Of a stretch of 40,000 nucleotides of DNA, positions 6,876 through 21,761 are shown piece by piece. Position numbers and translations under genes: made by a program. The stretch comes from Ruegeria atlantica (GTDB lineage Bacteria > Pseudomonadota > Alphaproteobacteria > Rhodobacterales > Rhodobacteraceae): the NCBI GenBank assembly GCA_013032095.1, contig WQBJ01000024.1, forward strand, positions 1 to 40,000. Reading direction: 5' to 3'. Positions within the stretch are counted from its first letter, which is position 1. Each line of letters begins with the position of its first letter. Below the pieces are notes generated by a model. The model made no database searches and was not told the DNA's origin. It saw nothing but the letters and a program-made list of their open reading frames with translations.

Positions 6876-9383
6876 ATGAAAACCCAAGTCAAAGCACTGG
6901 TCGTTGGCGGCGGCGCCGTCGGGACCTCGATTGCCTATCACCTGGCCAAGGCGGGCTGGGACGATGTGATGTTGATCGAACGGGACGAGCTGACGTCCGG
7001 GTCCACCTGGCACGCAGCGGGTCTGTTGCCGCTGTTCAACATGTCCTATGCGACAACTCACATCCACAAGTACTCGGTCGACTTCTACAAGACGCTTGAG
7101 GAAGAGACCGGCCTGAACGCGGGTTTTGCCGTGGTCGGCAACCTGCGGATGGCGCAGACGCAAGAGCGTATGGATGAATACATGCTTTATGCGTCCACTG
7201 CCGAGACTTGTGACGTTGCGTATGAATGGCTGACGCCCGAGCAGATCAAGGAACGCTGGCCGCTGATCGAGACTTCGGACCTGAAGGGTGCGATCTATCA
7301 CACCGAAGACGGCTACATTAACCCGGCCGACGTGACACAGGCGATGGCCAAGGGCGCACGTCAGCGTGGTGTCGAGATCGTCCGCAAGATGCAGGCCGAC
7401 GCCTTCCACTGGAACGGCACCCATTGGGAAGTCACCTGCACCAAGATGGTCGAAAAGGGTGGTAACCTTGTTGAGAGCGACGAGCAGGTGGTGATCACTG
7501 CCGAGCATGTTGTGACCGCATCGGGCAACCACGCGCAGCGCACCGCCAAGATGCTGGGCATCAAGATGCCTGCTATCCCGGTCGAGCACACTTTCATCGT
7601 CATGGACAAAGACCCCGAGCTGGTCAAATGGCGTGAGGCCGGCAACCCTGAACACCCTGTTGTGCGTGACGCCGACAACGAATCCTATGCGCGTGAAGAA
7701 CGTGGCGGCTGGATTCTGGGTATCTACGAACATGGCGCACCCGCGCGGTTCGAACATGGTGTGCCGGACAGCTTCCGTGCCGATCTGTTCCCGTTGGATC
7801 TGGACCGGATTGCAGATCAGTACATGGCAATGGCTGAACGCGTACCGTCCTGCGCTGAATCCGGCCTGAAAGACGATTTCAACGGCCCAATCTGCTATAC
7901 CCCCGATGGCAACCCGCTGGTTGGCCCGGCTCCGGGTCTGCGCAATATGTGGTTGGCCGAAGGTTTCTCGTTTGGGATCACCGCCGCAGGCGGCACCGGC
8001 TACTATCTGGCGCAGATGATGGTCGATGGCGAAGCCGAGATCGACATGGCCTCGCTGGACCCCAAGCGTTACAGCAGCAACTGGATGACCACCGAGTTCG
8101 CGGCCCGCAAGAATGAAGAGTGCTATGAGCACGTCTACATCCTGCACCATCCCGACGAAGAGCGTGCAGCTTGCCGTCCGCTGCGGACTGTTCCGGCGTA
8201 CGATCGCCAGAAGGCGCGTGGCGCGCAGTTCGGCTGGGTCAACGGATGGGAACGTCCGAACTACTTCGGCCCGGTCGATGCGCCCGAAAACTTCGACGAG
8301 GAAAGCCGTTCCTTCCGTCGTGGTAATTGGTGGCAGTACGCAGTCGAAGAAGCAAAAGCGATCCGCGAAGGCGTTGGCCTAATCGACGCGTCGGCCTTCA
8401 CCAAGCATGTCGTCAAAGGCCCCGGTGCGACCCAGTTCCTGGATTGGTTCACTTGCAACAAGCTGCCCAAGGTCGGTCGTATCAACCTGACCTACGCGCT
8501 GACCTCGCACGGCACCACCCGCACCGAATACACCATCGTCCGCAATGGCGAGAACAACTACTACATCGTCTCCGCCGGCGCCTGGACCGAGTACGACGCC
8601 GACTATCTGCGAAAAGCGGCCGAGGACAAGATGGAGGAGTTCGGTTACATCGAGATCCAGGACGTGACCACCCAGTGGGGCGTCTTCGCCATCGCCGGAC
8701 CCAAGTCGCGTGACGTTCTGAAAGAGGTCATCAAAGACGCCGATCCGGAATCCGCGCTGTCCAACAAGCGCTTCCCATGGCTGTCGGCCCGTCAGATCGA
8801 ACTGGGTATGTGTCCGGTCAACGCGATCCGCGTGGCCTATACCGGCGAGCTGGGCTGGGAACTGCACCACCCGATCGAAATGCAGAACTACCTGTTCGAC
8901 CTGCTGGAAAAAGCGGGTGAGAAGCACGGTATGAAGCTGGTCGGTGCCCGCGCTCAGAACTGGCTGCGTCAGGAGAAATCCTATCGCGCCTTCGGCACCG
9001 AGTTGGGCCGCGACGCAACCCCGCTGGAAGCCGACCTGCCGCGCTTTGTCGACCTGTCGAAAGACTTCTACGGCAAGGCCAAGCTGGAAGAGACCGGTGT
9101 GCGCGTGAAATGCTGCACCCTGCTGATCGACGGACCGGACGATGCCGATCCGTGGGGCCGCGAGGCGCTGTACACGCCGGAAGGTGAGCGCGTCGGTCGT
9201 CTGACCTCGGGCGGCTACTCGGTGGCCTTCGAAAAATCCATCGGCATGGGTTACGTGAAGCCCGAGCTGGCGGTCGAAGGCACCAAGCTGCAAGTCAAAA
9301 TTCAGGACAAGCTGTGGGATGCGGTTGTCACCTGCGACAGCCCCTACGATCCGAAGAATGAAGTTATCCGCAAGGACGGCTAA
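6876..9383 (+). CDS. Dimethylglycine/sarcosine dehydrogenase-family enzyme (FAD oxidoreductase fused to GcvT-like aminomethyltransferase domain)
   Basis: N-terminal dinucleotide fold VVGGGAVGTSIAYHLAKAG. C-terminal folate-binding GcvT-like region (YTGELGWELHHP). The 835-aa length is typical of the DMGDH/SARDH family. GGGGAG RBS precedes the ATG. Confidence 0.85.
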   Translation: MKTQVKALVVGGGAVGTSIAYHLAKAGWDDVMLIERDELTSGSTWHAAGLLPLFNMSYATTHIHKYSVDFYKTLEEETGLNAGFAVVGNLRMAQTQERMDEYMLYASTAETCDVAYEWLTPEQIKERWPLIETSDLKGAIYHTEDGYINPADVTQAMAKGARQRGVEIVRKMQADAFHWNGTHWEVTCTKMVEKGGNLVESDEQVVITAEHVVTASGNHAQRTAKMLGIKMPAIPVEHTFIVMDKDPELVKWREAGNPEHPVVRDADNESYAREERGGWILGIYEHGAPARFEHGVPDSFRADLFPLDLDRIADQYMAMAERVPSCAESGLKDDFNGPICYTPDGNPLVGPAPGLRNMWLAEGFSFGITAAGGTGYYLAQMMVDGEAEIDMASLDPKRYSSNWMTTEFAARKNEECYEHVYILHHPDEERAACRPLRTVPAYDRQKARGAQFGWVNGWERPNYFGPVDAPENFDEESRSFRRGNWWQYAVEEAKAIREGVGLIDASAFTKHVVKGPGATQFLDWFTCNKLPKVGRINLTYALTSHGTTRTEYTIVRNGENNYYIVSAGAWTEYDADYLRKAAEDKMEEFGYIEIQDVTTQWGVFAIAGPKSRDVLKEVIKDADPESALSNKRFPWLSARQIELGMCPVNAIRVAYTGELGWELHHPIEMQNYLFDLLEKAGEKHGMKLVGARAQNWLRQEKSYRAFGTELGRDATPLEADLPRFVDLSKDFYGKAKLEETGVRVKCCTLLIDGPDDADPWGREALYTPEGERVGRLTSGGYSVAFEKSIGMGYVKPELAVEGTKLQVKIQDKLWDAVVTCDSPYDPKNEVIRKDG

Positions 9384-9393: not shown

Positions 9394-9411
9394 CCCCAGC
9401 GAAAGCCGGGG
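9394..9411. repeat. Left copy of target-site duplication (CCCCAGCGAAAGCCGGGG)
   Basis: The identical 18-mer occurs in direct orientation at 20543..20560, immediately outside the two TIRs. The C4/G4 ends are complementary to each other, so the true duplicated length is ambiguous at 14-18 bp. Confidence 0.85.
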
Positions 9412-9516
9412 GGTATAGAGATATCCGCCAGAAAATAACTACTCACCTCAAAGGAGCCCGCACAGAGATGTGTGGGCTTTCTTTCTTGATCCAACCGTTG
9501 ATCGTGATCGACTGCT
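9412..9516. repeat. Left terminal inverted repeat (105 bp)
   Basis: Base-by-base comparison shows 9412..9516 equals the reverse complement of 20438..20542 with no mismatches (GGTATAGAGATATCCGCCAG...GATCGTGATCGACTGCT). Confidence 0.95.
9455..9487 (+). terminator. Inward-facing intrinsic terminator-like hairpin inside the left TIR
   Basis: AGCCCGCACA-GAGA-TGTGTGGGCT forms a 10-bp stem with one G-U pair and a GNRA loop. It is followed by TTCTTTCTT. Confidence 0.6.
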
Positions 9517-9543
9517 ATGAGCCCATACTGAACTCATCAGAGC

Positions 9544-10182
9544 TCAAATATCTGCAAGGTGGTCAAACTTTCGAATGAACGCTTCCTGCACGCTCTTATC
9601 TTGCGTTAAGAGCAATCCATACGACTTCAGATAGGCATTGATCGCGGTTTGTAGTGCATCTCGCCGAACAATTTTTTTCTTTGCGTCAACGGCAATGTTA
9701 CCTGAAGCCCATATCCTCCAACCATTTTTCGTGCGTGCCTCATGCAACAAAGCACATCGAACACTTTGATAGAATTCTCGCGATTCTAATTTGTCTGAAA
9801 AACATTCGCTGAACGGCTCCTCCCGAACGAGAAACTCACAAAATAGGGCGTTGCTACTTGAGTACTCATACTGGCCGAGTTTCTCGCCCTTTTTCAGGAA
9901 TTTGTAGCTTTTTCCGGCCTTCAGAGCTGCAAGGAACTCGATTAGAGCGCATTGAACAGAGACAATCGTGAATCCTTCACCTTGGACATCGCCATGGTCT
10001 TGGAGCACCTTTATCGGAGTTAGATAACGGTGACTGAGTCGAGCCATCAAAAAATCTTCAAAAGTCTTAGCCCAAAGGATTTCTTTTTCATTTTCATTTG
10101 CGTTTAGCTCGATCTTTCGCGCCTGCCAGTCTTTCACCGTGCGATGCCCGGCAATCTGGTCGCTTGCGTCGTCATTTGCCAT
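9544..10182 (-). CDS. Hypothetical 212-aa casposon cargo protein (possible HEPN-like R-x4-H motif)
   Basis: ATG at 10182 lies 69 bp downstream of the cas1 stop on the same strand, with GGAAG upstream. Sequence looks helical. R142-CALL-H147 is encoded at 9742..9759. No confident family assignment. Confidence 0.6.
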   Translation of the reverse strand: MANDDASDQIAGHRTVKDWQARKIELNANENEKEILWAKTFEDFLMARLSHRYLTPIKVLQDHGDVQGEGFTIVSVQCALIEFLAALKAGKSYKFLKKGEKLGQYEYSSSNALFCEFLVREEPFSECFSDKLESREFYQSVRCALLHEARTKNGWRIWASGNIAVDAKKKIVRRDALQTAINAYLKSYGLLLTQDKSVQEAFIRKFDHLADI

Positions 10183-10251
10183 CGTTTTTTACTTCCGTTC
10201 CAGCGCATTAACTTTCCCAAGTTGCTCTTAATAGATAGTTCACTTCAAGCA

Positions 10252-11421
10252 TCAAATCGGCAGGCCAAGCATTGTCGGCTGTGTCCGCATTCCAACCATA
10301 TGCCCGGCATAGGGGCGAGCGGAGTTTCGCAATTCAAACTCCACCTCATACACTACCTTCCTCGCCAAGTTTGGGCTTAGGCGACAAACGCCATCATCCT
10401 GCAAAATGAAATCCGCCCCCGTGAATATTTCGTCCTGGACCAGTTTCAACACAGCCCGGTCTACGATGGGGCGTAGTGGCTCCATCATGTCGAAGACGAA
10501 GGAGTGACGCCTTGGGTCTACACGGTTATGCAGAATCCCTTGTGACACGTCGTAACCATCGGCAATCACGCCGATCCTGACATGGGCTTCAAGCATGCGA
10601 TACGCGTAATTCAGCATCGCATTGACTGGATGAGTGGCATTATAGTTTTTTGGCTTGCCGGAACTTAACGTGGATCTGGAGAAGAAGCGCTTCCATTCGT
10701 GTTGGATTGGGTATCGTCCTTCAGCTCTCCAGTGGATTTTCAATGCTCTCCAGGAAAAGAAGTAGCCAGCTGCGACGCGTCCTTCCTCGGAGAGCAGGCC
10801 CCCGATACTCGACAGCACACCCTTTTGCAGCAATTCGATAACCGATTGAGTTGTATTGATCGCTTTGGTTTTCGAAGGGGAATCTGGTAGCAATTCAAGC
10901 AAGTTATGCAAAGTCGCTTCCGCCTTTGCTGAAATTAGAGGAATAGCGAAATCTAACCTTTTGCTTTCCTCGCTTTGGGTTTCGAATTGCCACATCAGCT
11001 TTTCCGGCAATACCGAGGACTTGCCGTTGCCGAGAGCAATGATAGGTTTTCCATTCCAATTCAATCGGATCAATTCGACGTTCTGCGTTGAAAGCCAATC
11101 CAATGCGTCCAGGGTTATATTGCCTGACCCGTCGATCAGGAAAATGCGCTTTGGTAAACCCAGATCTCCTTTGAAAAAGCGGTATTTGCGTATTTCAGAA
11201 GGGTAATGCGTATTTCCATCCTTTACCGCCAATGTGCCCTTTTCGACCGCAATCGAAATGCCGTGCCCCGACAAGATAAGGGGCGTGGCTTGTCTTTCCC
11301 GCCGCTTCCGCTTCGGGGTGTGTTGACGGATGGATTGAAGCCAATACTCTGATCTTACGGCCCATTCATCGTGGGTTTCTTCTAAATTTTCCAAATCGTA
11401 CATTATTCCAATCCAATTCAA
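10252..11421 (-). CDS. cas1: Cas1-family integrase (casposase)
   Basis: Cas1 hallmarks are present. N-terminal beta region LILSGHGISIAVEKGTLAVKDG and IFLIDGSGNITLDALDWLSTQNVELIRLNWNGKPI. Catalytic E in LSEEGRVAAGYFF (10783..10788). HPVNAMLNYAYRMLE. Catalytic H in GILHNRV (10528..10530). D/E in FDMMEPLRPIVD (10480..10491). An alternative start is the ATG at 11403. Confidence 0.9.
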   Translation of the reverse strand: MNWIGIMYDLENLEETHDEWAVRSEYWLQSIRQHTPKRKRRERQATPLILSGHGISIAVEKGTLAVKDGNTHYPSEIRKYRFFKGDLGLPKRIFLIDGSGNITLDALDWLSTQNVELIRLNWNGKPIIALGNGKSSVLPEKLMWQFETQSEESKRLDFAIPLISAKAEATLHNLLELLPDSPSKTKAINTTQSVIELLQKGVLSSIGGLLSEEGRVAAGYFFSWRALKIHWRAEGRYPIQHEWKRFFSRSTLSSGKPKNYNATHPVNAMLNYAYRMLEAHVRIGVIADGYDVSQGILHNRVDPRRHSFVFDMMEPLRPIVDRAVLKLVQDEIFTGADFILQDDGVCRLSPNLARKVVYEVEFELRNSARPYAGHMVGMRTQPTMLGLPI

Positions 11422-11647
11422 TGTTTTTGTTATTAATCATATCATTAGATTGAAATGACGAGCCTGTTTTCTTCGCCAAATAGGCGATTTTTTCCCGAGT
11501 TCTCCAAGAAATCCCAGATGGTTGACGGCGGCTAGATGGGTGCCAAAGTATCCTAACCCCCTGACTGATTCTTTTTGAGTCAACCCATTGCGAGAGTTTT
11601 GCGGGGGCTTTTCAGGTTCGTGAACATTCTCTTTCCTAAAGGGCGAC

Positions 11648-11669
11648 AGACCGGCCATCGCGCCGGTCT
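11648..11669. promoter_or_regulatory. Perfect 8-6-8 palindrome upstream of the HTH gene (operator candidate)
   Basis: AGACCGGC-CATCGC-GCCGGTCT lies 23 nt upstream of the ATG at 11692, within the divergent cas1 / HTH-HNH-polB intergenic region. Confidence 0.3.
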
Positions 11670-11691
11670 CAAACGTTTTAGGAGAGGCGCG

Positions 11692-12264
11692 ATGGCGAAA
11701 AAGCGCGACTACAAGGCAGAATACCAAAGGCGGATCGCCAATGGCCTGAAACGAGGACTATCCCGTTCCCAGGCACGTGGGCATCCATCCAAGGCGGAAG
11801 CGAGCGCATCCGGCATACAGGTTCCAAAGCCCAATGGTCAGCTTGAAGCTGCATTGCGAGAATTGAGACGCGGTGCCTCCCAGAAGGCTGCCGCGCAATC
11901 AGCCGGTGTCAGCCAAGAGCGTTTTCGCCGTTTTATCTACGGCCACGGCCTAGCCAGGCGAGAGGGACGATCCTGGGTTCTGACCGATGACCGGATGCGC
12001 CGCGTCACCACGATCCACCGGGGCGAAACCAAGACGGTGTGCGTCAATCGCTACGCAGAGGCGCAAACGGCGGGAGAGTATTCAGATGCTGTCGGTGTGT
12101 TTCTTCGTACCAACGATCCGTCCGTTTTGATCCCGTTTGTTGGGGGTGGTCTGACAGACCACAAAGGCCGCTTCCTCGAATTCGAGACGGACCCAAACGC
12201 TCTCTATCGTCACGCGTCCCAGGACACGCCCGCCTTTCACGAAATCTATCAAATCGTCAGCTAA
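11692..12264 (+). CDS. Helix-turn-helix DNA-binding protein (casposon-encoded)
   Basis: Track ORF was trimmed to the ATG at 11692, preceded by TAGGAGAGG. HTH-like segment GASQKAAAQSAGVSQERFRRFI. Basic N-terminus MAKKRDYKAEYQRRIANGLKRGLSRSQARG. Confidence 0.7.
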   Translation: MAKKRDYKAEYQRRIANGLKRGLSRSQARGHPSKAEASASGIQVPKPNGQLEAALRELRRGASQKAAAQSAGVSQERFRRFIYGHGLARREGRSWVLTDDRMRRVTTIHRGETKTVCVNRYAEAQTAGEYSDAVGVFLRTNDPSVLIPFVGGGLTDHKGRFLEFETDPNALYRHASQDTPAFHEIYQIVS

Positions 12265-12276
12265 AGGAGACACCTC

Positions 12277-12654
12277 ATGACAAAGACATACCAAGACCAG
12301 GAAACCCGCCGAGAAAAGGACTACCGCCGACTTCGGACGCGAAATCCAATCTGCGTTGGATGCGGCTATTCTGATCATCCAACTGCGCTGGAACTGGCCC
12401 ACATCATTCCGCGCAAGTTTGATGATGATGCCGTGGTGCTTTGCAGCAACTGCCACCGCGAACAGAGCGACGCCGAAAAGGATTTTTCCTACAGCCCGAC
12501 GACGGACAATCCGCAGATGGAAACCATCGGGCGGTATCTGTTGTCCGTCGCGGATATCCTGAAACTCGTTGCATCCAAATTCGAAGAGTTCGGGCATTGG
12601 CTGCTGGAACAGGCCGAACACGTTCTTCCGTATTGCCCGGAGGAAACGGCATGA
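12277..12654 (+). CDS. HNH endonuclease
   Basis: The pattern CVGCGYSDHPTALELAHIIPRKFDDDAVVLCSNCH matches the HNH/zinc-finger layout C-x2-C...H...N/C-x2-H. AAGGAG RBS is present. The stop overlaps the polB start as ATGA. Confidence 0.8.
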   Translation: MTKTYQDQETRREKDYRRLRTRNPICVGCGYSDHPTALELAHIIPRKFDDDAVVLCSNCHREQSDAEKDFSYSPTTDNPQMETIGRYLLSVADILKLVASKFEEFGHWLLEQAEHVLPYCPEETA

Positions 12655-15401
12655 GCCTACCATCGCCGTCTGAAGTCGCCGTGCGGGCCTACACCGAAAA
12701 ACCAAATGCCCGCCCCCTCGCGGCAAAGTCCTTTGCGGCAGGCGAGGATCACCCGTCACCGTGGACGCTGATCTTTGATTGCGAAACCACCATTGATGCC
12801 GCGCAAACCCTGCGCGTTGGCGTCTACCAAATGCGCAAGTCGGGTTCGTTGAAAGAAGAGGGCCTATTCTTCGATCCCGAACACCTCGGCTGCGAGGATC
12901 GCTCCGCGATTGAGGACTACGCGCAGTCGCACAAATTGAAGGTTCTCTCAGCTGATGCGTTTCGTAGAGAGGTTTTTCTCAAGATCGCCTACCTGAGACG
13001 GGGGGTGGTTGTGGGGTTCAATCTTCCCTTCGACCTGTCACGGATCGCGATCAAACACGGGGCTGCGCGCGGCCCAATGCGGGGCGGGTTCACCTTTCAT
13101 CTCAGCCGCTACAAGAGCGATCCGCAGATCCGCGTCAAGCACCTGAGCGCTCGCGCCGCGCTAATCGACTTTGCACAGCCTGCGAAGCAAGAAACACCGC
13201 GCGGTATGCGTAAGAAAGGGATGAAAGTTCCGCATCATCGCGGGTATTTTGTCGACGTCAAAACTTTGGCGGCGTCTCTGACCAGCCGAAGCTTCTCATT
13301 GGGCGGCCTGTGCAAGTATCTCGGAACGCAATCGCAAAAACTTGCAACCGAAGAGCATGGCGGGCCAATCACAGCCGACTATCTCGACTACGCGCGCGCA
13401 GATGTTCAGGCCACCTGGGAATGTTTTGCCGAACTTGACCGGAGATACAGCGAGCATGGCCTCGATACACCGACCCATCGCATTCTGAGCGAAGCCAGCA
13501 TTGGCAAAGCCTATCTCAAGCAGATGGGGATCCGACCCTTCCTGGGAAATTTGCCAGATTTTCCCCGAGAGATATTTGGCCAGATCACCTGTGCCTACTA
13601 CGGCGGGCGTGCCGAAGTTCGCATTCGGCGAGAGGCAACCCAAGTTCTCTATTGTGATTTCAAGTCCATGTATCCTACCGTCAGCGCCTTGATGGGGCTG
13701 TGGTCGTTTGTGGTCGCGCAAGACCTGAGCATCCATGACACAACGCGGGAAACCCAAGTATTCCTCGACAAGGTATCCTTGCAGGACATGCAGTCGAAAG
13801 AGACCTGGAAGCGTCTGCGCACCCTAGTCCGCATACAAACGAACCATGATCTGTTGCCTGTGCGGGCCAGGTATGACGGCAAGGTCAACACCATCGGCCT
13901 GAACTACGTCTCAAATGAGCAACCGCTCTGGTACACATTGGCCGATTGCATCGCATCAAAACTGTTGTCTGGGAAAACGCCGATCATCGAAGAGGCGATG
14001 ACCTTCGAACCGGGCGAGGTTCAGGACGGTTTCGAACCGATGAACCTGTTTGGAAATCCCAACTATCGCGTCGACCCTTCCTGTGACGACGTGTTCACCC
14101 GCTTCATTGATCTGCGCGATGCGGCACGGGCAAGAAAAGACCCTGTGCAGCAGGCCATCAAGATCGTCGCCAACTCAACGAGCTATGGCATCTTCATCGA
14201 AGTTAACCGGGACAATGCGCCCAAGCCGGAACCTTTGAGTGTGTATGGCCCGAACGGGCATCTGTTGAAAACCGACGCAACCGCTGTCGAAGAACCGGGT
14301 CGCTACTATCACCCGCTCTTGGGAACGCTGATCACCGGAGCCGCCCGCTTGATGCTGGCCTTGTCGGAACGCGTGGCAGCGGATCAATGGTTAAACTGGG
14401 TGTTCTGCGATACCGACAGCCTCGCTATGGCAAAGCCCGCGCATATGGAACAAACCGAGTTCCTGGCAAAGGGGCAAAGCGTGATCGACTGGTTCAATAG
14501 TCTCAACCCTTATCGAAAGCCGGGCTCCATTCTGGAAATGGAAGATGCAAATCATGATCCAAACACAGGACAGTCGGAGCCGCTCTATTGCCTGGCCATC
14601 TCGGCAAAGCGCTATGCGCTCTACAATCTCTCAAACGACGCCAAACCCGTATTGCGCAAAGCATCCGCGCACGGTCTTGGGCATTGGATGGCTCCCTACA
14701 GCGAATATGACGCACCAGGATGTGTGCCAAACCCCGCATTGTTGCCATCTGAGATAGGCGTCGACCGTTGGCAGCATGATTTGTGGATCAAGATAATCGA
14801 AGCCGTTCTACGCGGCACGCCCGATCAGGTCAGCCTGGACTATCATCCCGCCTTGCAAAATCCCTGCGTCAGTCGCTACGGCGCAACCAGCCCTCAACTG
14901 TTGAAGTGGGTTGAGATCTGGAACCAGGATCAGCCGTACCAAGACCAAATCAAGCCGTTTGGGTTTCTGAGCGCGTTCACCGCAAAGTCCGGGTGTTTAA
15001 TCGAACCAAGGCAAGATGTGATCGTGGGGACGCCTGGTCGTGGCAGGCCTACCAAGTCCAAGACGCCAAAGCCAATTGCCCCGTTTGAACGGGATAGCCG
15101 ATTGGCGGTTTCCCAGGCCTTCGACCGGATTGCCGGAGATCAAGTGCACCCTTCAGAACTCAAGACCTATGCCGAGGCCCTGGCACAATTCCATCTCAGC
15201 ACCGAAGACAAATTCGAGAACGGCGATTTTATCCACGTCGGCGAAACTCGAAGACGCCATGTCCAGGTAGAGAATGTCGGGCTTATCGGCAAAGAAGCCA
15301 ACAAGGTTGGATCATGCGGTGAGGCTGATCCCATCGTGTCGGCCCAAGCGAGCTTCGGAGCGCTTCAAACCATCAATCACCAAACGGAGGTCAGCCAATG
15401 A
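12651..15401 (+). CDS. polB: Family-B DNA polymerase
   Basis: Exo I: LIFDCETT (12777..12785). Exo II: GFNLPFDLSRI. Exo III: YLDYARADVQATW. Pol motif A: LYCDFKSMYPTV (D codon at 13656). Motif B: KIVANSTSYGIF. Motif C: VFCDTDSLAM (DTDS at 14410..14421). Track ORF was trimmed to the ATG at 12651 after GGAGGAAAC. Confidence 0.9.
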   Translation: MSLPSPSEVAVRAYTEKPNARPLAAKSFAAGEDHPSPWTLIFDCETTIDAAQTLRVGVYQMRKSGSLKEEGLFFDPEHLGCEDRSAIEDYAQSHKLKVLSADAFRREVFLKIAYLRRGVVVGFNLPFDLSRIAIKHGAARGPMRGGFTFHLSRYKSDPQIRVKHLSARAALIDFAQPAKQETPRGMRKKGMKVPHHRGYFVDVKTLAASLTSRSFSLGGLCKYLGTQSQKLATEEHGGPITADYLDYARADVQATWECFAELDRRYSEHGLDTPTHRILSEASIGKAYLKQMGIRPFLGNLPDFPREIFGQITCAYYGGRAEVRIRREATQVLYCDFKSMYPTVSALMGLWSFVVAQDLSIHDTTRETQVFLDKVSLQDMQSKETWKRLRTLVRIQTNHDLLPVRARYDGKVNTIGLNYVSNEQPLWYTLADCIASKLLSGKTPIIEEAMTFEPGEVQDGFEPMNLFGNPNYRVDPSCDDVFTRFIDLRDAARARKDPVQQAIKIVANSTSYGIFIEVNRDNAPKPEPLSVYGPNGHLLKTDATAVEEPGRYYHPLLGTLITGAARLMLALSERVAADQWLNWVFCDTDSLAMAKPAHMEQTEFLAKGQSVIDWFNSLNPYRKPGSILEMEDANHDPNTGQSEPLYCLAISAKRYALYNLSNDAKPVLRKASAHGLGHWMAPYSEYDAPGCVPNPALLPSEIGVDRWQHDLWIKIIEAVLRGTPDQVSLDYHPALQNPCVSRYGATSPQLLKWVEIWNQDQPYQDQIKPFGFLSAFTAKSGCLIEPRQDVIVGTPGRGRPTKSKTPKPIAPFERDSRLAVSQAFDRIAGDQVHPSELKTYAEALAQFHLSTEDKFENGDFIHVGETRRRHVQVENVGLIGKEANKVGSCGEADPIVSAQASFGALQTINHQTEVSQ

Positions 15402-15739
15402 GCTGGGAGCACATCGAATACCCCGCATTTTGCCGAGATTGCGGGCACAAGGGCAGCCGCATCTATTCGGAAAACGACTGGTTCCGGACCAATGTCACTT
15501 GGATTGGATTTGAATTTGCCGAAGTTCGAACAAAGAAAGTCCACTCAGGGACAGTTTCCTGCCCCGAATGCGGCTCTAGCTCAATACATGTAGAAAAAGA
15601 GAAAGGAGCATACGTCAAGCGTGATCAATTTTGGGATGATAGGACAACCGGAGTAATGGGAGAGGACGAATTGTGTAAATTCACTACCAGCGAGCCCATC
15701 GGCAGCAATGCGCAGAAAGCGACCTTTGCAAAATTATAG
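15398..15739 (+). CDS. Zinc-ribbon protein (hypothetical)
   Basis: Two C-x2-C pairs (CRDCGHKG ... CPECGSSS). The ATG overlaps the polB stop as ATGA, suggesting translational coupling. Confidence 0.6.
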   Translation: MSWEHIEYPAFCRDCGHKGSRIYSENDWFRTNVTWIGFEFAEVRTKKVHSGTVSCPECGSSSIHVEKEKGAYVKRDQFWDDRTTGVMGEDELCKFTTSEPIGSNAQKATFAKL

Positions 15740-16112
15740 GGACGGCCCACAGCCGTCGTCAGCTGGTTCCGGGAACGCTTAATCGCAGTTTTCCCGGAGC
15801 GGACGTTGGTCAAATTTGCAGCATCCTTCGAGTCGAGACGGCAGCACCGCGCAAAAAAGTAACCAATTGGCGGGCTGATTAGCCCAAAGTGGTCGTTTTT
15901 TCACGTCGCAATCTAAGGGCAACTCATCGTGGCAAACAGTGGGTGTGCAGCGGAAGGGAAAATCGGCGAAAGAACCTTCGCTCTGTTGGAGGGGCTTCAA
16001 GGGAAGCTTATTAAACAAGATTCTCTTCGATATGTTTTTTCTGAAACGCGCCGAGGATGAAGCCCTAAAATTTTGATATTTATAGAATTAACGACTTTCA
16101 AACCTTGGCGGC

Positions 16113-16141
16113 TTGAAAAGTGTATTGCGTAACGCTACAGT
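16113..16141 (+). promoter_or_regulatory. Sigma-70-like promoter candidate for the large cargo gene
   Basis: TTGAAA, a 17-nt spacer, then TACAGT. It lies about 27 nt upstream of the ATG at 16168 in an AT-rich 430-bp intergenic region. Confidence 0.35.
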
Positions 16142-16167
16142 ATACGAAAGAATTTGTTGAGGTCTTC

Positions 16168-19100
16168 ATGTCGAATCGCACAATCAGCGCTAACCACCCC
16201 GGTTACTTCATAAAAAACAACGTTATTCCAGAAGGAGTGAGCGTCACCGCCGCTGCAAAAACACTCGGCGTAGGGAGGCCAGCGCTGTCCAATCTTCTAA
16301 ATGGAAAGTCATCCCTTTCCCCCGAGATGGCAGCTAAAATTGAAAAGGCGTTTGGTCACAGCGCAAAAGAGTTGCTCGATCTACAAAGCGCTTATGAAGC
16401 CGGCTCTAACGTCTGTAGTGCCGCCACAACAACCTCGTTTCCGTATGTACCTCCCTTCTTGGGGGCTACCGCAAATCAGATATTCGATTGGTCGCAGCGT
16501 ATATCTTCGCGTACCCGCTTTGCAGTCTTTCTAAGAACGCTTGTTCACAGTACTTGCGCTTCTACGTCTTTGGTAGACTTTCCCGGAAATGATGACGGCG
16601 AGCGACCAGGTTGGGATGGAGAGGTTGAATGCGAAACGGGTAACCCGTGGGTTCCAGTAGGGAAATCCGGCTGGGAATTCGGCACAAATGCAAACTACGC
16701 ATCCAAAGCAAACAAGGACTACAAGAAGAGTGTGAAGGCTCTAGAGGCTGAAAAGCGCAAGGGGATGACGTTCGTCTTCGTCACGCCTCATCGCTGGAAA
16801 AACAAGTCGAAATGGGAGGCGGAGAAACGTGCTGAGGGACATTGGAAGGATGTCCGTGTGTATGACGTTAGCGATCTAGAGCAATGGCTGGAGCAGTCTT
16901 TACCAGCTCAAACATGGTTCGCAAACGAAACCGGCGTCGAGTACGAAGGCACACTGTCTCTAGACCGCTGCTGGGTAAAGTGGAACGCTGACTGCAAGCC
17001 ATCCTTTACGGAGGAAATTTTCGAAGAGGCGATTTCGACAGTTGGAAAAAAGCTCTCGGACCGACTTCGCAATGACGGGGATCGAGTGGCTCGTTTGGCT
17101 GCGGACTCTGTCGAGGAAGGACTTGCTTTCTTGCATGCTCTCTTTCACCACAGTGAAGGAAAATTGGCACAACAACGCGACCGGGTCATTGTCTTCACTA
17201 AGCCCGGACCTCTCGCAAAGCTGGCTGCAAAGACCAGTCGCTTCATACCGATCATAACAAACAGAGAAGTTGAAAAGGAACTATCCGAATCAGGGCATAG
17301 ACTAGGTGGCATCGTAATCACGCCACGCACGACCGAGGGTGTCGAGAAGGATATTGTTTTGGAGCCCTTGAGTGGAGAGGCATTCCGTGTGGGTCTCGAA
17401 AAAATGGGACTTGGTCGTGATGACATATCCCGACTGGGCAACGAGTCAGGTCGTTCGCTCACGGTGCTTAGAAGACGGCTTTCAACTTCTGACGCGATAC
17501 AAAGGCCCGAGTGGAGTAACCGCAGTGATTTGGCAAAGTTCCTGTTTCCAATTCTGCTTGCTGGCGCTTGGAACTCTAGAAACAAAGCTGACTGCATTAT
17601 CCTGTGCGAGCTTGCAGGAATTGATAACTACCGTGATCTTGAAAACCAATTCGCAAAGCTGCTGAACCTCAATAGTCCGCCAGTCTGGGCTGTTGGAGGC
17701 TTCCGAGGGGTAGTCTCAAAGATTGATGCGGTCTATGCAATCCGTAGCTGGATAAGCGAAGATGAGCTCAAGCGTTTTTTCTCTGTCGCAGATTTGGTTT
17801 TGTCGGAGCGCGATCCATCCTTAGACCTTCCCGAAGAAGATCGTTGGGCAGCGCATATTTATGATAAGAAAAGAGATATTAGCGGCTCCCTTCGTGACGG
17901 GATCGCCGACAGCCTCGCATTGTTGTCCATGCATGGGAAAGAATTGTTCTTCTCACGAACAGGTTTAAACCCAGAACATCTATGTTCTAACCTTGTTAAA
18001 GGGTTGCTAGAACCGCTTACTGCGGAGCTTCTTGAATCGCAGGCTTCAGAACTACCAATCTATGCAGAGGCCGCGCCGGATACATTCCTCACTATTTTTG
18101 AGAAAGACCTTAAGACGGGCGAGCCCGTTGTGTTTTCTCTCATCCGCCCGGCAGGTACAGGTCTCTTTGAGCGAACCCCTCGTACTGGTTTGCTCTGGGC
18201 GCTCGAAAACCTTGCTTGGTCACCTATCCACTTACCGCGCGTTCTTGAAATTCTGGCGAGGCTCAGTCAGATCAAGTTGGACGACAACTGGGTAAATAAG
18301 CCAGCGGAAACGCTCCGCTCAATCTTCCGAAGTTGGTTTCCTCAGACTGGTGCGCCGCTAAAACAGCGGATAGCACTGTTGAAGAGGATGATTGCAGATC
18401 ATCCCGATGTAGCTTGGAAAATTTGCAAGGCAGAGCTTGATCCGTCTCCGGGTTTTGCTAGCCCCAATCATAAGCCGAGATGGAGAGACGATGCCTTTGG
18501 GCATGGTGAGGGGGTCACCAGAGGAGAACGTAGTGAATTTGTGGTTTTCTGCATCGAAAGCGCGCTCAACTGGCCAAGATACGACGTCGAGATTCTATGT
18601 GACCTGATCGGTTTTGAAGACTTTGTGACTGACGATCATAATAAACAGGTGTGGCGCGTTGTTAATGCATGGGCGCAAACAGCAAGTGATGTAGATAGAG
18701 CTACTCTTAGAGAGAAAATTCGAACAACAACACGCCGCACGATGCGCCGTAGGAAGCGCAAACTTAGAGATGCAGAGAGCGATACACGACGAACTAAATT
18801 AGCAAAGGATACTTACGATGCGCTCGAACCACGCGATTTAATCCAGAAGTTTTCATGGCTGTTCAAGAAGCACTGGGTGCCGGAAGCGTGGGACGAGATA
18901 GAAGATGATACCGACTATCGGAAAAGAGACGAGCGCATACAATCCCTGAGGGATGATGCGGCTCAACAGGTTTTCCAAGTGAAAGGTTTCCAAGGGTTCG
19001 TTGAACTTGCTTTTCTTGGGGAGGCCTCATGGATTGTGGGTAGGTGTGCCGGGCGTGTGTTAAACGACATTAGTGCACGAAGTGACTTTGTTCATTTTGT

Positions 19101-20244
19101 GATTTCGGAGCACTCCCTTGCCAGCACTTTCGCTGCCCGACAACTAGTTGGAGGCATGTTCGCTGAAATCGGAGCAGAGAAAGCGGTCAATACCTTGGCT
19201 ACGCTTCGCGGCAGTCTGGACCAAACAAAACTACTGGACCTGTACTGCCTTGCACCGTTCGTGATGGCGGTGTGGTTAGACTTGGGGCATTTCGACTTAG
19301 ATTTTCAGAATGACTATTGGAAGTCTGTTAGTCCGACTTGGATGCATCATTCCGAAGAGGATTTGAGGTTTGCTACTGGTAAGCTTATTGACCAGGGACG
19401 CCCAGCTGCAGCCTTTCAATTAATACATCTGGACTTAAAGTCGATTGCTTCAGTTCAGCTTTATCAGGTGCTTTTGGACATGACGACCTCAAATGAGGAG
19501 CGTGGTGCAATCCAATCGATGGAAGCATATTCCATTAAGGAAGCTATTTCGCTTTTGACAGAACGCGGGGCTCAAAGCCAAAGCGAACTGGCCCTTTTGG
19601 AGTTTCGTTACCTCGCGCTTTACCGCGATGACAAAGAAGAGGCTTTGAACTTAGAGAAAGAGATATCACAGAACCCAAGCATTTTTTGTGATGCCATTGA
19701 ATTGGCCTATAAGCGTGACGACGGCTCATCTGACAAGGACGATATCGAGGACCTAGAGACAGTCGCGACGAACGCATATCGAATGCTTGACGTGCTGAAA
19801 CGGATACCTGGCAGTCGCGACGATGGTATCGTTGACGCCGACCATCTTGAAGAATGGATAGGTGAGGCTCGTAGATTGTGTGAAAAGAAAGGGCGCAGCG
19901 ATATTGCTGACTACAGAATTGGTGAGCTCCTAAGTAATGCTAAAGTAGGCGCAGACGAAGTGTGGCCATGTGAAGGCGTCAGGGCAGTTATGGACCGTTT
20001 GATGACAGACAGCATCTCACAAGGCTTTTACATCGGCACAAAGAACTCTCGCGGTGTCCATTTCCGAGGTGAAGGAGGAGCTGAAGAGAGGAGCCTCGCC
20101 AAGAAGTATTCAGATTGGGCATCGTCCATGGAGTATGAATATCCGAACACTGCTACAGCACTCCGCACCATCTCAGACAGCTACGTGAGCGAAGCTGAGT
20201 ACGAAGATAACGAAGCAGCGATCCGCAAGCGTATGCGTTATTGA
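16168..20244 (+). CDS. Large (1358 aa) cargo protein: N-terminal HigA/VapI-type HTH fused to uncharacterised domains
   Basis: Track ORF was trimmed to the ATG at 16168 (GAGG upstream). N-terminus HPGYFIKNNVIPEGVSVTAAAKTLGVGRPALSNLLNGKSSLSPEMAAKIEKAFGHSAKELLDLQ is a typical HigA-family Xre HTH. The remaining roughly 1260 aa are mostly helical with no canonical Walker A. Confidence 0.85.
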   Translation: MSNRTISANHPGYFIKNNVIPEGVSVTAAAKTLGVGRPALSNLLNGKSSLSPEMAAKIEKAFGHSAKELLDLQSAYEAGSNVCSAATTTSFPYVPPFLGATANQIFDWSQRISSRTRFAVFLRTLVHSTCASTSLVDFPGNDDGERPGWDGEVECETGNPWVPVGKSGWEFGTNANYASKANKDYKKSVKALEAEKRKGMTFVFVTPHRWKNKSKWEAEKRAEGHWKDVRVYDVSDLEQWLEQSLPAQTWFANETGVEYEGTLSLDRCWVKWNADCKPSFTEEIFEEAISTVGKKLSDRLRNDGDRVARLAADSVEEGLAFLHALFHHSEGKLAQQRDRVIVFTKPGPLAKLAAKTSRFIPIITNREVEKELSESGHRLGGIVITPRTTEGVEKDIVLEPLSGEAFRVGLEKMGLGRDDISRLGNESGRSLTVLRRRLSTSDAIQRPEWSNRSDLAKFLFPILLAGAWNSRNKADCIILCELAGIDNYRDLENQFAKLLNLNSPPVWAVGGFRGVVSKIDAVYAIRSWISEDELKRFFSVADLVLSERDPSLDLPEEDRWAAHIYDKKRDISGSLRDGIADSLALLSMHGKELFFSRTGLNPEHLCSNLVKGLLEPLTAELLESQASELPIYAEAAPDTFLTIFEKDLKTGEPVVFSLIRPAGTGLFERTPRTGLLWALENLAWSPIHLPRVLEILARLSQIKLDDNWVNKPAETLRSIFRSWFPQTGAPLKQRIALLKRMIADHPDVAWKICKAELDPSPGFASPNHKPRWRDDAFGHGEGVTRGERSEFVVFCIESALNWPRYDVEILCDLIGFEDFVTDDHNKQVWRVVNAWAQTASDVDRATLREKIRTTTRRTMRRRKRKLRDAESDTRRTKLAKDTYDALEPRDLIQKFSWLFKKHWVPEAWDEIEDDTDYRKRDERIQSLRDDAAQQVFQVKGFQGFVELAFLGEASWIVGRCAGRVLNDISARSDFVHFVISEHSLASTFAARQLVGGMFAEIGAEKAVNTLATLRGSLDQTKLLDLYCLAPFVMAVWLDLGHFDLDFQNDYWKSVSPTWMHHSEEDLRFATGKLIDQGRPAAAFQLIHLDLKSIASVQLYQVLLDMTTSNEERGAIQSMEAYSIKEAISLLTERGAQSQSELALLEFRYLALYRDDKEEALNLEKEISQNPSIFCDAIELAYKRDDGSSDKDDIEDLETVATNAYRMLDVLKRIPGSRDDGIVDADHLEEWIGEARRLCEKKGRSDIADYRIGELLSNAKVGADEVWPCEGVRAVMDRLMTDSISQGFYIGTKNSRGVHFRGEGGAEERSLAKKYSDWASSMEYEYPNTATALRTISDSYVSEAEYEDNEAAIRKRMRY

Positions 20245-20437
20245 TGGTTGCTGGACTGAAGTAGTCTTAGCGGAACTGGAACCTAGGCAATGCTCAACGG
20301 ATCGTGAGCGTGTTCCACCTTCGACAAGGTGACCAAACTCCACGTCTGCTTTGGGTTGGGATCAGATAGGGTCGACCAATCTACACAGTGTCGCAAGGTA
20401 CAAATCAAAAAAAGCTAAAATCAAAAAAGTGGCTTCG

Positions 20438-20542
20438 AGCAGTCGATCACGATCAACGGTTGGATCAAGAAAGAAAGCCCACACATCTCTGTGCGGGCTC
20501 CTTTGAGGTGAGTAGTTATTTTCTGGCGGATATCTCTATACC
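20438..20542. repeat. Right terminal inverted repeat (105 bp)
   Basis: Exact reverse complement of 9412..9516. Confidence 0.95.
20467..20499 (-). terminator. Inward-facing intrinsic terminator-like hairpin inside the right TIR
   Basis: Mirror image of 9455..9487, so the same hairpin plus U-rich tract reads on the minus strand. Confidence 0.6.
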
Positions 20543-20560
20543 CCCCAGCGAAAGCCGGGG
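20543..20560. repeat. Right copy of target-site duplication (CCCCAGCGAAAGCCGGGG)
   Basis: Identical to and in the same orientation as 9394..9411. It is followed by CCTTTTTCTTTCC, so this copy still reads as a plus-strand terminator. Confidence 0.85.
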
Positions 20561-20615
20561 CCTTTTTCTTTCCTTCATCAGAAAAATTGCGCCAGACATG
20601 GCTTGTAGAAGTACC

Positions 20616-21692: not shown

Positions 21693-21761
21693 GTCATCAT
21701 TCCACTTAACATTAGATAAATGGAATATGTCGTGGAGCGTTAAGCAGGGCCTTGATCTTGA

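What the first reader, a model, noticed from the sequence alone, without database searches (positions are those of the whole stretch)
9394..20560. Complete, apparently recent casposon: Cas1 plus PolB between perfect 105-bp TIRs and a direct target-site duplication
Seen directly: 9412..9516 is the exact reverse complement of 20438..20542. An identical 18-mer flanks both ends in direct orientation. Between the repeats lie a Cas1 homolog with intact catalytic residues, a family-B polymerase with all Exo I-III and Pol A/B/C motifs, an HNH nuclease, an HTH protein and a zinc-ribbon protein. There is no classical transposase, tyrosine or serine recombinase, cas2 or CRISPR array. From established knowledge: this gene set with TIRs and a TSD defines casposons (Krupovic et al. 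2014), whose Cas1 acts as the integrase and makes roughly 14-15 bp duplications (Hickman and Dyda 2015). Bacterial casposons are rare compared with archaeal ones. Zero mismatches in the TIRs and TSD suggest a recent insertion that may still be mobile.
Basis: partly seen in the sequence, partly recalled or inferred. Interest (0 to 1): 0.9.

Follow-up and report, generated by a model that had tools for sequence, protein, structure and literature searches.

The report
Bacterial casposon inserted in a terminator hairpin
This is a complete, intact-looking Cas1-plus-polymerase transposon (a family 3 casposon) in a marine Roseobacter-group bacterium; it and dozens of relatives sit exactly in GC-rich terminator hairpins, a targeting rule I did not find in the casposon papers I could search.

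Summary
Window 9412-9516 is the exact reverse complement of 20438-20542 (105 bp). An identical 18-mer flanks both ends in direct orientation. Between the repeats lie Cas1, an HNH nuclease, a family B polymerase with all motifs, and a conserved ~190-aa winged-helix protein, plus lineage-specific cargo.

It is a family 3 (bacterial) casposon. Its Cas1 matches the M. mazei casposase structure far better than any CRISPR Cas1. The four-gene core is shared with the published HypCY54-C1. A syntenic Roseobacter genome lacks the element.

Two corrections apply. Relatives show a conserved terminus GGGGTATAG, so the true duplication is most likely 14 bp (CCAGCGAAAGCCGG); the 18-mer is 14 bp plus 2 bp of tip/target overlap on each side. 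Such elements are also not rare in metagenomes.

The added finding concerns the target. The duplicated sequence is the core of a GC-rich hairpin between convergent genes. In 13 of 14 complete relatives (window included) the duplication is centred within 1 nt of a hairpin dyad. Among 47 independent junctions, 64% abut a stem of at least 5 bp, against 6% of controls (p = 6e-21).

Verdict: new member of a known kind, with a possibly undescribed hairpin-targeting rule.

The parts
9394..9411 (.). Left copy of the flanking direct repeat (maximal 18-mer CCCCAGCGAAAGCCGGGG). The inferred 14-bp target-site duplication is 9396-9409 (CCAGCGAAAGCCGG).
   Evidence: Exact identity with 20543-20560. The 14-bp parse comes from the conserved GGGG tip in relatives.
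9410..9516 (+). Left terminal inverted repeat. It holds the conserved tip GGGGTATAGAGATATCC (9410-9426). The exact 105-nt repeat is 9412-9516.
   Evidence: 0 mismatches. The tip is conserved in about 40 related ends.
9453..9480 (+). Terminator-like hairpin inside the left TIR, facing inward (12-pair stem, tail CTTTCTTGAT).
   Evidence: A hairpin at the same place is conserved in the WIN/L001/L009/L021-L024/L029 subgroup. Function is inferred.
9544..10182 (-). 212-aa ORF downstream of cas1. Lineage-specific cargo of unknown function.
   Evidence: No Pfam, NCBIfam, PADLOC, PHROG or PDB match. Absent from all related loci.
10252..11421 (-). Casposase (Cas1 homologue). The ORF runs from TTG 11421. 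The database protein P0001 (383 aa) starts at ATG 11403.
   Evidence: PF01867 E 2.4e-33. Best PDB hit 6OPM E 9.6e-29, against 2.6e-12 for the best CRISPR Cas1. E213, H298, D311 and E314 are invariant in 37 relatives.
11692..12264 (+). Conserved ~190-aa core protein: an N-terminal RDYKAEY..GLSRSQARGH motif, a winged helix-turn-helix, and a C-terminal alpha/beta domain.
   Evidence: Present in 68 related loci. 877 homologues, all unnamed and without Pfam domains. AF2 model pLDDT 85. Only sub-threshold winged-helix matches of about 60 residues.
12277..12654 (+). HNH endonuclease (125 aa).
   Evidence: PF01844. PHROG HNH families, best E 1.8e-9. Conserved in 56 related loci.
12651..15401 (+). Family B DNA polymerase (916 aa from ATG 12651, overlapping the HNH stop codon).
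   Evidence: PF03175 27 bits. PHROG DNA polymerase E 4.6e-12. Invariant Exo I D43xE45, Exo II N124..F127-D128, Exo III Y247..D251, motif A D336FKSMYP, motif B K504..N508..Y512-G513, motif C D587-T-D589-S, and K653-R-Y655.
15398..15739 (+). 113-aa zinc-ribbon protein, overlapping the PolB stop codon.
   Evidence: Weak zinc-ribbon matches, all below their cut-offs. Conserved only in the closest relative, L001.
16120..20244 (+). 1374-aa cargo protein: a HigA-like HTH at the N-terminus fused to a large domain of unknown function.
   Evidence: TIGR02607 E 3.8e-15. HigA structures E about 3e-5. phrog_18693 E 2.2e-147 over residues 117-1371. Absent from related casposons.
20474..20501 (-). Mirror copy of the terminator-like hairpin, in the right TIR, facing inward.
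20438..20544 (-). Right terminal inverted repeat. The exact 105 nt are 20438-20542. The tip CCCC is 20541-20544.
20543..20560 (.). Right copy of the direct repeat. The inferred 14-bp duplication is 20545-20558. It is followed by GGCCTTTTTCTTT.
6876..9383 (+). Host gene for a dimethylglycine-dehydrogenase-like protein. Its stop codon lies 10 nt before the target hairpin.
   Evidence: Pfam DAO, FAO_M, GCV_T and GCV_T_C. 94-97% identical to Shimia, Phaeobacter and Ruegeria proteins.
20616..21152 (-). Convergent 178-aa host-side ORF. It ends 55 nt after the right repeat copy.
   Evidence: No family match. Absent from the syntenic locus L103.

Best explanation
Identity. The element is an 11,135-bp family 3 casposon (9410-20544) inserted in the chromosome of a Roseobacter-group alphaproteobacterium.

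Core and cargo. Four core genes are shared with all relatives: casposase (Cas1), a ~190-aa winged-helix protein, HNH nuclease and PolB. The remaining genes are cargo.

Proposed mechanism, by analogy with studied casposases (inferred, not shown here). The casposase binds the conserved termini (5'-GGGGTATAGAGATATCC). It joins the two 3' ends to the two target strands 14 bp apart. Gap repair then gives the 14-bp duplication. PolB copies the element.

Target (shown by comparison). The target is a class of sites, not one site: GC-rich hairpins of the form CCCC..loop..GGGG. Many are intrinsic terminators just past the 3' ends of genes. The two joints are placed symmetrically about the hairpin dyad. 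The hairpin core is therefore duplicated, and a hairpin is rebuilt on each side of the insert.

This locus. The reconstructed empty site is aaaaGGCCCCAGCGAAAGCCGGGGCCtttttcttt. It looks like a two-way terminator between the convergent dimethylglycine-dehydrogenase-like gene and a 178-aa ORF.

TIR hairpins (inferred function). Each TIR carries an inward-facing terminator-like hairpin about 45 nt from the tip. It would stop host transcripts that read through the now T-less hairpin copy.
For: Identity:
- Searches cover the repeats, Cas1, HNH and PolB with invariant motifs, and the best solved relative, casposase 6OPM.
- Family 3: Cas1 P0058 of the Hyphomonas element matches at E 5.6e-111, 52% identity. 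That element carries two ParB genes and a serine resolvase, as published for HypCY54-C1 (PMC4779613). It has the same core order Cas1 / ~190 aa / 125-aa HNH / ~900-aa PolB.
- The published NitAL212-C1 TIR also starts GGGGTAT and has a 14-nt direct repeat.

Insertion:
- L103 is syntenic with the window (77-89% nt identity). There the dimethylglycine-dehydrogenase gene is followed directly by the DUF938 and DAO genes, with no element between.
- G+C is 0.49-0.56 inside the element and 0.58-0.62 outside.

Tip and duplication:
- L014 and L098 have A/T-containing targets and show the tip as exactly GGGG with 14-bp duplications.
- With that tip, 14 complete elements (window included) give 14,14,14,14,14,15,15,15,15,15,16,16,17,17 bp.

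Hairpin target:
- The duplication is centred within 1 nt of a hairpin dyad in 13 of 14 elements, and exactly on it in 9.
- 30 of 47 independent junctions have a perfect stem of at least 5 bp ending at the tip. The figure is 37 of 580 for host 30-mers ending in GGGG (Fisher p = 6e-21).
- Median folding energy is -14.7 against -5.4 and -7.1 kcal/mol in the two controls.
- HypCY54-C1 sits in CCCCGGCCCCGGAAAGGCCGGGG followed by TTTTTT.
- 16 of 22 junctions have the 3' end of the nearest ORF facing the site.
- In the window, CCCC-N6-14-GGGG occurs only at the two repeat copies and once inside cas1.

The hairpin belongs to the host:
- L022, L023 and L024 have TIRs 95-99% identical from the GGGG tip inward, but unrelated flanks and different hairpins.

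TIR hairpins.
Against: - No nucleotide-level empty site was found for this insertion. The intergenic DNA of the closest syntenic genome is not alignable.
- No experiment bears on activity.
- G/C runs at the junctions make the exact joint positions ambiguous by 1-2 nt, so 14-17 bp may be real variation or a parsing effect.
- The simple terminator scan did not call the target hairpin, because of its internal A/C mismatch.
- Some targets are not good hairpins: L014, L009, and the weak CTAAC..GTTGG stems of L079, L094 and L098.
- Many CCCTCCCC-type target hairpins lack T-runs, so 'terminator' does not describe all targets.
- L079, one L049 element and the published HenMar-C1 have hairpin flanks in inverted rather than direct orientation. 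The simple model does not predict this.
- PolB evidence from profile libraries is marginal, and no significant solved relative was found.
Confidence: 0.85

Rival explanations
1. The hairpins are part of the element: a palindromic outer TIR, as HenMar-C1 was drawn in 2014, with a duplication of 0-1 nt. In this reading they are not host target sequence.
For: The published HenMar-C1 ends CCCCCTCTCCCG(G/C)ATCGGGAGGGG are inverted, not direct, with DR = 'T'. L079 and one L049 element also have inverted flanks. Because the flanks are near-palindromes, the inverted repeat in the window extends to 136 nt at 93%.
Against: - In the window the 18-mer is identical in direct orientation, but the 20 nt next to the TATAG core differ at 6 of 20 positions when compared in inverted orientation.
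- 12 of 14 complete elements tested (the window and relatives) have direct duplications.
- Near-identical TIRs in L022, L023 and L024 abut unrelated hairpins.
- The hairpins carry A- and T-runs and lie at the 3' ends of host genes.
Confidence: 0.05
2. The joints are set by sequence, not by structure. The casposase prefers G-runs resembling its own GGGG tips at both half-sites. GC-rich hairpins are hit simply because CCCC..GGGG pairs at the right spacing are mostly found in such hairpins.
For: Tip/target overlap of 1-2 nt at nearly every junction. L014 inserted without a good hairpin. The L079/L094/L098 subgroup uses a different stem sequence, CTAAC..GTTGG.
Against: Complementarity continues inside the outer CCCC/GGGG, with stems of 6-10 bp. 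The duplication is centred on the dyad whatever the loop length, and its length varies with the hairpin. Sequence data alone cannot separate the two models.
Confidence: 0.3
3. The stagger at this locus really is 18 bp, with element tips GG/CC.
For: The exact direct repeat is 18 nt. The duplication length appears to vary between relatives (14-17).
Against: Relatives with unambiguous junctions show a GGGG tip and 14 bp (L014 and L098). The published NitAL212-C1 has a GGGGTAT tip and a 14-nt repeat. Five elements parse to exactly 14.
Confidence: 0.12
4. The element is a casposon by descent but no longer moves. It would be a fixed island whose TIR identity is maintained by gene conversion rather than by recency.
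For: Only one copy in 40 kb. No excised or empty form could be examined. Inverted flanks elsewhere hint at recombination or conversion between TIRs.
Against: All four core ORFs are full length with catalytic residues intact. The TIRs are 105/105 identical, against 86-96% in relatives. A syntenic relative lacks the element. Near-identical TIRs at different sites in metagenomes show that the family moves.
Confidence: 0.2

Closest known systems
Family 3 (bacterial) casposons: HypCY54-C1, HenMar-C1/C2, CitBat-C1, NitAL212-C1, StrAlb-C1 (Krupovic et al. 2014, PMC4046053; 2016, PMC4779613)
   Same: - Cas1 without fused domains.
- Core of Cas1, HNH, an HTH protein and PolB in the same order as HypCY54-C1, with Cas1 52% identical.
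- A GGGGTAT-type tip and 14-nt duplication as in NitAL212-C1.
- Bacterial host, intergenic insertion, variable cargo.
   Different: - New host lineage. The host is a Roseobacter-group bacterium (Rhodobacterales), an order not among the family 3 hosts listed in the 2014 and 2016 papers.
- Unique cargo: a 1374-aa HigA-HTH fusion and a 212-aa ORF.
- Perfect 105-bp TIRs.
- The papers say only that family 3 elements are 'intergenic'. They drew the HenMar-C1 hairpin as part of the TIR. Here the hairpin is shown to be the host target.
Family 2 archaeal casposons (Aciduliprofundum boonei, Methanosarcina mazei) and their studied casposases (PDB 6OPM; Beguin et al. 2016, PMC5137440)
   Same: Cas1 integrase, the closest solved structure. 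Duplication of about 14-15 bp. HNH and HTH genes. Tandem insertions sharing one duplication (PMC4779613), as seen here in L106 and L049. [quoted passage not shown]
   Different: Family 2 uses the 3' ends of tRNA genes plus an upstream 'leader', and its Cas1 carries a C-terminal HTH. No tRNA gene was found anywhere in the 12 related loci scanned, each spanning the element and its flanks; the window's only tRNA (39-113) lies 9 kb from the insertion. The Cas1 here has no extra domain. In A. boonei another, more stable palindrome was not a target. Here the hairpin itself is what gets duplicated.
Spacer integration by CRISPR Cas1-Cas2 at (often palindromic) repeats
   Same: Homologous integrase. 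Two staggered joints at the borders of a unit that becomes duplicated. Here that unit is a GC-rich palindrome, which gives hairpin-insert-hairpin and, in L106 and L049, hairpin-insert-hairpin-insert.
   Different: No cas2, no array and no leader. The insert is an 8-14 kb element with its own TIRs. The duplicated unit is 14-17 bp, not 25-35 bp.
Other mobile elements recalled as targeting palindromes or terminators (from my own knowledge, not tested here): IS1397/ISKpn1 and IS110-family elements in REP sequences; class C bacterial group II introns after intrinsic terminators
   Same: They use abundant, structurally conserved, gene-free hairpins as safe landing sites.
   Different: Unrelated enzymes (DDE or DEDD transposases, reverse transcriptase/ribozyme) and different joint geometry.

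Membership tests
Casposon (superfamily) | Encodes a Cas1-family integrase with the conserved catalytic residues | tested here: met
   PF01867 E 2.4e-33 and TIGR00287 E 2e-30. E213, H298, D311 and E314 invariant in 37 relatives and aligned to 6OPM.
Casposon (superfamily) | Encodes a family B DNA polymerase | tested here: met
   PF03175 27.0 bits against a cut-off of 25.8. PHROG DNA polymerase E 4.6e-12. Exo I-III, motifs A/B/C and KxY invariant in 12 relatives. Caveat: no significant solved relative.
Casposon (superfamily) | Terminal inverted repeats | tested here: met
   105/105 nt.
Casposon (superfamily) | Flanking target-site duplication (median about 15 bp) | tested here: met
   Exact 18-nt direct repeat. 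Parsed as 14 bp with the conserved GGGG tip.
Casposon (superfamily) | No other transposase or tyrosine/serine recombinase that could move it | tested here: met
   None found in the seven main ORFs against Pfam and NCBIfam. Small ORFs were not scanned.
Casposon (superfamily) | Integrase activity or mobility demonstrated | not testable with these tools
   Indirect only: absent from syntenic L103, and near-identical TIRs at different sites in metagenomes.
Casposon family 3 | Cas1 groups with bacterial casposases | tested here: met
   Match to the Cas1 of the Hyphomonas element (HypCY54-C1 by gene content) at E 5.6e-111, 52% identity. The family 2 casposase 6OPM scores 9.6e-29 and CRISPR Cas1 2.6e-12. 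No formal tree with families 1, 2 and 4 was built.
Casposon family 3 | [quoted passage not shown] | tested here: inconclusive
   HNH and the ~190-aa winged-helix protein are present and conserved. PolB type is unresolved: the Pfam hit is to the 'organellar and viral' model, and the only PDB hint is E. coli Pol II at E 0.065. Homology of the 190-aa protein to the published 'conserved HTH protein' was not checked directly.
CRISPR-Cas adaptation module | cas1 next to cas2 and a CRISPR array | tested here: not met
   No array. No Cas2 domain in neighbouring ORFs.
Intrinsic (rho-independent) terminator, as the target | GC-rich stem-loop followed by a T-run just downstream of a gene's stop codon | tested here: inconclusive
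   The reconstructed site aaaaGGCCCCAGCGAAAGCCGGGGCCtttttcttt lies 10 nt after one stop codon and 55 nt after the convergent one. It has 7 T in the next 12 nt. The simple scan does not call it, because of the A/C mismatch. Termination was not measured. Many relatives' targets lack T-runs.

The most novel reading that the evidence does not exclude
The whole clade of bacterial (family 3-like) casposons with GGGGTATAG tips is targeted to GC-rich palindromic hairpins, often intrinsic terminators. Integration is symmetric about the dyad, so the hairpin core is duplicated. This gives hairpin-element-hairpin and, on re-use, tandem hairpin-element arrays.

If so, three things follow. The 'palindromic TIR' of HenMar-C1 would be re-read as captured or flipped target sequence. 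Family 3 casposases would gain a concrete, testable target. And a natural route would exist from a duplicated casposon target to palindromic CRISPR repeats.

The held literature states only that family 3 elements are 'intergenic'. A full-text search for 'casposon' plus 'terminator' found nothing relevant, and I saw no description of such targeting in the other papers read. I could not read the 2017 review.
Probability: 0.55. Interest if true: 0.75.

Novelty: new member of a known kind. Interest (0 to 1): 0.6.

Why it matters
- Only casposases of archaeal families 1 and 2 have been studied biochemically. This element is an apparently intact bacterial family 3 casposon in a Roseobacter-group bacterium, a group with many cultivable members. 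It has perfect ends and a sharply defined predicted target, so integration assays can be designed directly.
- The hairpin-targeting rule explains how a large transposon can spread across many genomes without breaking genes.
- Whether the ancestral CRISPR repeat came from a casposon TIR or from its duplicated target is left open in the literature. Here the duplicated target is itself a GC-rich palindrome, and tandem re-use of it already occurs.

Tried and rejected
- Exact-sequence look-ups of the window's Cas1 and both flanking proteins found no contig.
- The genome-collection scan returned mostly distant soil MAG loci (about 40% identity) in which TIRs were rarely detectable within 10 kb.
- The closest syntenic genome (L103) lacks the element, but its intergenic DNA is not alignable. 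The empty site is therefore shown at gene level only.
- PDB sequence searches led nowhere for PolB (single sequence and profile), the 190-aa protein, the 212-aa ORF and the C-terminal 1,250 residues of the 1374-aa protein.
- PADLOC gave only one weak partial hit.
- No Cas1 relative was found on PLSDB plasmids.
- tRNA or other RNA genes as targets: rejected, none at any junction.
- 'Hairpin is part of the TIR': rejected.
- The 2017 casposon review and the 2016 supplement could not be read, so prior description of hairpin targeting cannot be fully excluded.
- The 96-aa ORF 11437-11727 is not conserved and was treated as spurious.

Full report
**Observation.** Window 9412-9516 is the exact reverse complement of 20438-20542 (105/105), and identity ends abruptly at the next base. 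The 18-mer CCCCAGCGAAAGCCGGGG sits directly outside both repeats in the same orientation. It occurs nowhere else in the window and cannot be extended. G+C is 0.49-0.56 between the repeats and 0.58-0.62 outside.

**Genes.** The element holds seven sizeable ORFs.
- Cas1, 10252-11421 on the minus strand: PF01867 E 2.4e-33 and TIGR00287 E 2e-30.
  - Its best solved relative is 6OPM at E 9.6e-29. I recognise this entry as the M. mazei casposase; the database labels it Cas1. The best CRISPR Cas1 (4N06) scores 2.6e-12.
  - E213, H298, D311 and E314 are invariant in 37 relatives and align with the casposase.
- HNH, 12277-12654: PF01844 and a dozen PHROG HNH families.
- PolB, most likely from ATG 12651 to 15401 (916 aa, the same length as in the closest relative).
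  - Profile support is modest: PF03175 scores 27.0 bits against a cut-off of 25.8, and a PHROG DNA polymerase scores E 4.6e-12.
  - An alignment of 12 relatives shows every family B motif invariant. These are Exo I FDCETT, Exo II NLPFD, Exo III YARAD, motif A DFKSMYP, motif B KxxxNSTSYG, motif C CDTDS, and KRY.
  - No solved structure matched significantly.
- A 190-aa ORF, 11692-12264, is conserved in 68 related loci. It has 877 database homologues, all unnamed and without Pfam domains. An AlphaFold model (pLDDT 85) shows three helices and a beta wing at residues about 49-97, followed by an alpha/beta domain. Only sub-threshold winged-helix matches were found.
- A 113-aa zinc ribbon, a 212-aa ORF and a 1374-aa protein are not shared with relatives, except the zinc ribbon with L001. 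The 1374-aa protein is a HigA-like HTH fused to phrog_18693, of unknown function. These three ORFs are cargo.
- No transposase, recombinase, Cas2, CRISPR array or RNA gene is present.

**Host and insertion.** The flanks are ordinary metabolic genes. The upstream dimethylglycine-dehydrogenase-like protein is 94-97% identical to proteins of Shimia, Phaeobacter and Ruegeria, so the host belongs to the Roseobacter group. Locus L103 (GCA_013033945.1) is syntenic on both sides at 77-89% nt identity. There the same gene is followed directly by the DUF938 and DAO genes. In the window those genes lie beyond the element. The 11 kb is therefore an insertion. The intergenic DNA has diverged, so the empty site is not seen at nucleotide level.

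**Family.** Cas1 homologues are numerous.
- The search gave 636 hits, the 120 best all at E <= 1.2e-96. Several are named from Hyphomonas, Oceanicaulis, Marinicauda, Hirschia and Sneathiella.
- The metagenome scan gave 549 confirmed stretches.
- At 50% clustering, 161 clusters reach E <= 1e-30.
- P0058 (52% identity, E 5.6e-111) lies in a Hyphomonas element carrying two ParB genes and a serine resolvase. That is the cargo published for the family 3 casposon HypCY54-C1 (PMC4779613). The element has the same core order: Cas1 / ~190 aa / 125-aa HNH / ~900-aa PolB.
- The same four genes recur in every sufficiently long relative.

This is a family 3 casposon. The kind is known, including in Alphaproteobacteria.

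**Ends and duplication length.** Related elements end in a conserved tip, GGGGTATAG(A/T)GAT(A/G)TCC.
- Where the target is not G/C-rich at the joints (L014, L098), the tip is exactly GGGG and the duplication is 14 bp.
- The published NitAL212-C1 TIR likewise begins GGGGTAT and has a 14-nt repeat.
- Applying this tip to the window gives tips at 9410-9413 and 20541-20544. The duplication is then CCAGCGAAAGCCGG (14 bp), and the element is 11,135 bp.
- The 18-mer arises because the host site continues ..GG|GGCC and CC|CC.., which matches 2 nt of each tip.
- Across 14 complete elements (window included) the duplication is 14-17 bp. G/C runs leave 1-2 nt of ambiguity.

**The target is a hairpin.** The duplicated sequence is the core of a GC-rich stem-loop. 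The reconstructed empty site is aaaaGGCCCCAGCGAAAGCCGGGGCCtttttcttt. It begins 10 nt after the stop codon of the upstream gene and ends 55 nt before the stop of a convergent ORF. This pattern is general.
- The closest relative (L001, Cas1 71% identical) has almost the same TIR. It sits in a different hairpin, aaaaaaCCCCGCGATAAATCACGGGGtttt, between convergent NnrS and rplT genes.
- HypCY54-C1 sits in CCCCGGCCCCGGAAAGGCCGGGG followed by TTTTTT.
- In 13 of 14 complete elements the duplication is centred within 1 nt of a hairpin dyad.
- Of 47 independent junctions, 30 have a perfect stem of at least 5 bp ending at the tip. The figure is 37 of 580 for host 30-mers that also end in GGGG (odds ratio 26, p = 6e-21). 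One search gives a similar result.
- The nearest ORF points its 3' end at the site in 16 of 22 junctions.
- No tRNA gene was found in any of the 12 related loci scanned.
- In the 40-kb window, CCCC-N6-14-GGGG occurs only at the two repeat copies and once inside cas1.

**Is the hairpin host or element?** The 2014 paper drew the HenMar-C1 hairpin as part of a palindromic TIR, with a 1-nt duplication. Here the evidence is against that reading.
- The window's flanks are identical as direct repeats. The 20 nt next to the TATAG core differ at 6 of 20 positions when compared as inverted repeats.
- 12 of 14 elements tested (the window and relatives) have direct duplications.
- L022, L023 and L024 have TIRs 95-99% identical from the GGGG tip inward, yet different hairpins and unrelated flanks.
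- Three cases do have inverted flanks: L079, one L049 element, and HenMar-C1. L049 is a tandem pair, so recombination between the facing TIRs could flip the shared hairpin. Gene conversion running through the quasi-palindrome is another possibility. Neither was tested.

**Mechanism.** Shown: the anatomy, the conserved tips, the duplication geometry, and the target class. Inferred, from the studied family 1 and 2 casposases (Hickman and Dyda 2015; PMC5137440; PMC8464041):
- Cas1 joins the two 3' ends 14 bp apart and repair duplicates the interval. PolB copies the element. HNH and the winged-helix protein assist in excision, target choice or regulation.
- A two-fold symmetric target would suit a symmetric integrase. 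Sequence data cannot tell whether the enzyme reads the G-runs or the structure.
- Each TIR carries an inward-facing terminator-like hairpin with a T-rich tail, at 9453-9480 and 20474-20501. It is conserved in the nearest subgroup. It would end host transcripts that pass the duplicated, now T-less hairpin. This is a proposal.

**Comparison and novelty.**
- Against family 2: same duplication length and tandem re-use of the target. There is no tRNA target and no HTH fused to Cas1.
- Against CRISPR adaptation: a homologous integrase that duplicates a palindromic unit. There is no cas2, array or leader.
- The element itself is a new member of a known kind, in a host order absent from the two survey papers read.
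- The hairpin-targeting rule was not found in the literature I could search. The 2017 review was not available.

**Recency.** The window's TIR pair is the only perfect long one among the elements compared; the others are 86-96% identical. All core ORFs are intact. This fits a recent insertion or active homogenisation. Present-day mobility is untested.

Noticed in passing
L100:706-15553 (Hyphomonas, HypCY54-C1); cargo at L100:11731-15349: The published casposon carries three genes with LmuB_C, MC3 and CTD7 domains between cas1 and its right end. This is defence-like cargo inside a casposon. Other relatives carry an AAA_15/AAA_21 ATPase and ScoMcrA_N-HNH (L106), or HNH_5 and DUF559 (L107).
   Followed up: partly
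window 16120-20244: A 1374-aa protein fuses a HigA-type antitoxin HTH to a ~1250-residue domain. That domain matches phrog_18693 end to end (E 2e-147) and has no known function. One weak partial PADLOC hit (PD-Lambda-4_A). A 23%-identical stretch occurs in an unannotated gut phage contig.
   Followed up: partly
L106:14118-14143 and L049:1547-1567: Tandem arrangement: the right end of one element, one shared hairpin, then the left end of another. In L106 the second unit contains an IS3-type transposase.
   Followed up: partly
L079 ends (101 and 13508); L049 element B; published HenMar-C1: The hairpin flanks are in inverted rather than direct orientation. In L079 the inverted identity runs 9 nt beyond the hairpin. 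Unexplained.
   Followed up: partly
L079, L094:150-238, L098:1290-1310 and 14925-14950: A subgroup uses CTAAC-N4-5-GTTGG stems instead of CCCC..GGGG. L094 and L098 share the next 13 nt, so this may be one conserved site. No tRNA or Rfam family lies there.
   Followed up: partly
L001:11125-12492: An IS630-type (DDE_3) transposase gene lies just downstream of cas1, between it and the nearby TIR, in the closest relative.
   Followed up: no
window 20561-21760: The host-side DNA right of the element has low G+C (0.50-0.52). It carries a 178-aa ORF with no family match and is absent from the syntenic locus L103. It may be another small acquired segment.
   Followed up: no
window 11404-11691: The 288-bp divergent region between cas1 and the 190-aa gene has no sigma-70-like promoter by the simple scan. 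A 96-aa ORF across it is not conserved.
   Followed up: no
window 39-113: tRNA-Gln (anticodon TTG) on the minus strand, 9 kb from the element and unrelated to the insertion.
   Followed up: yes
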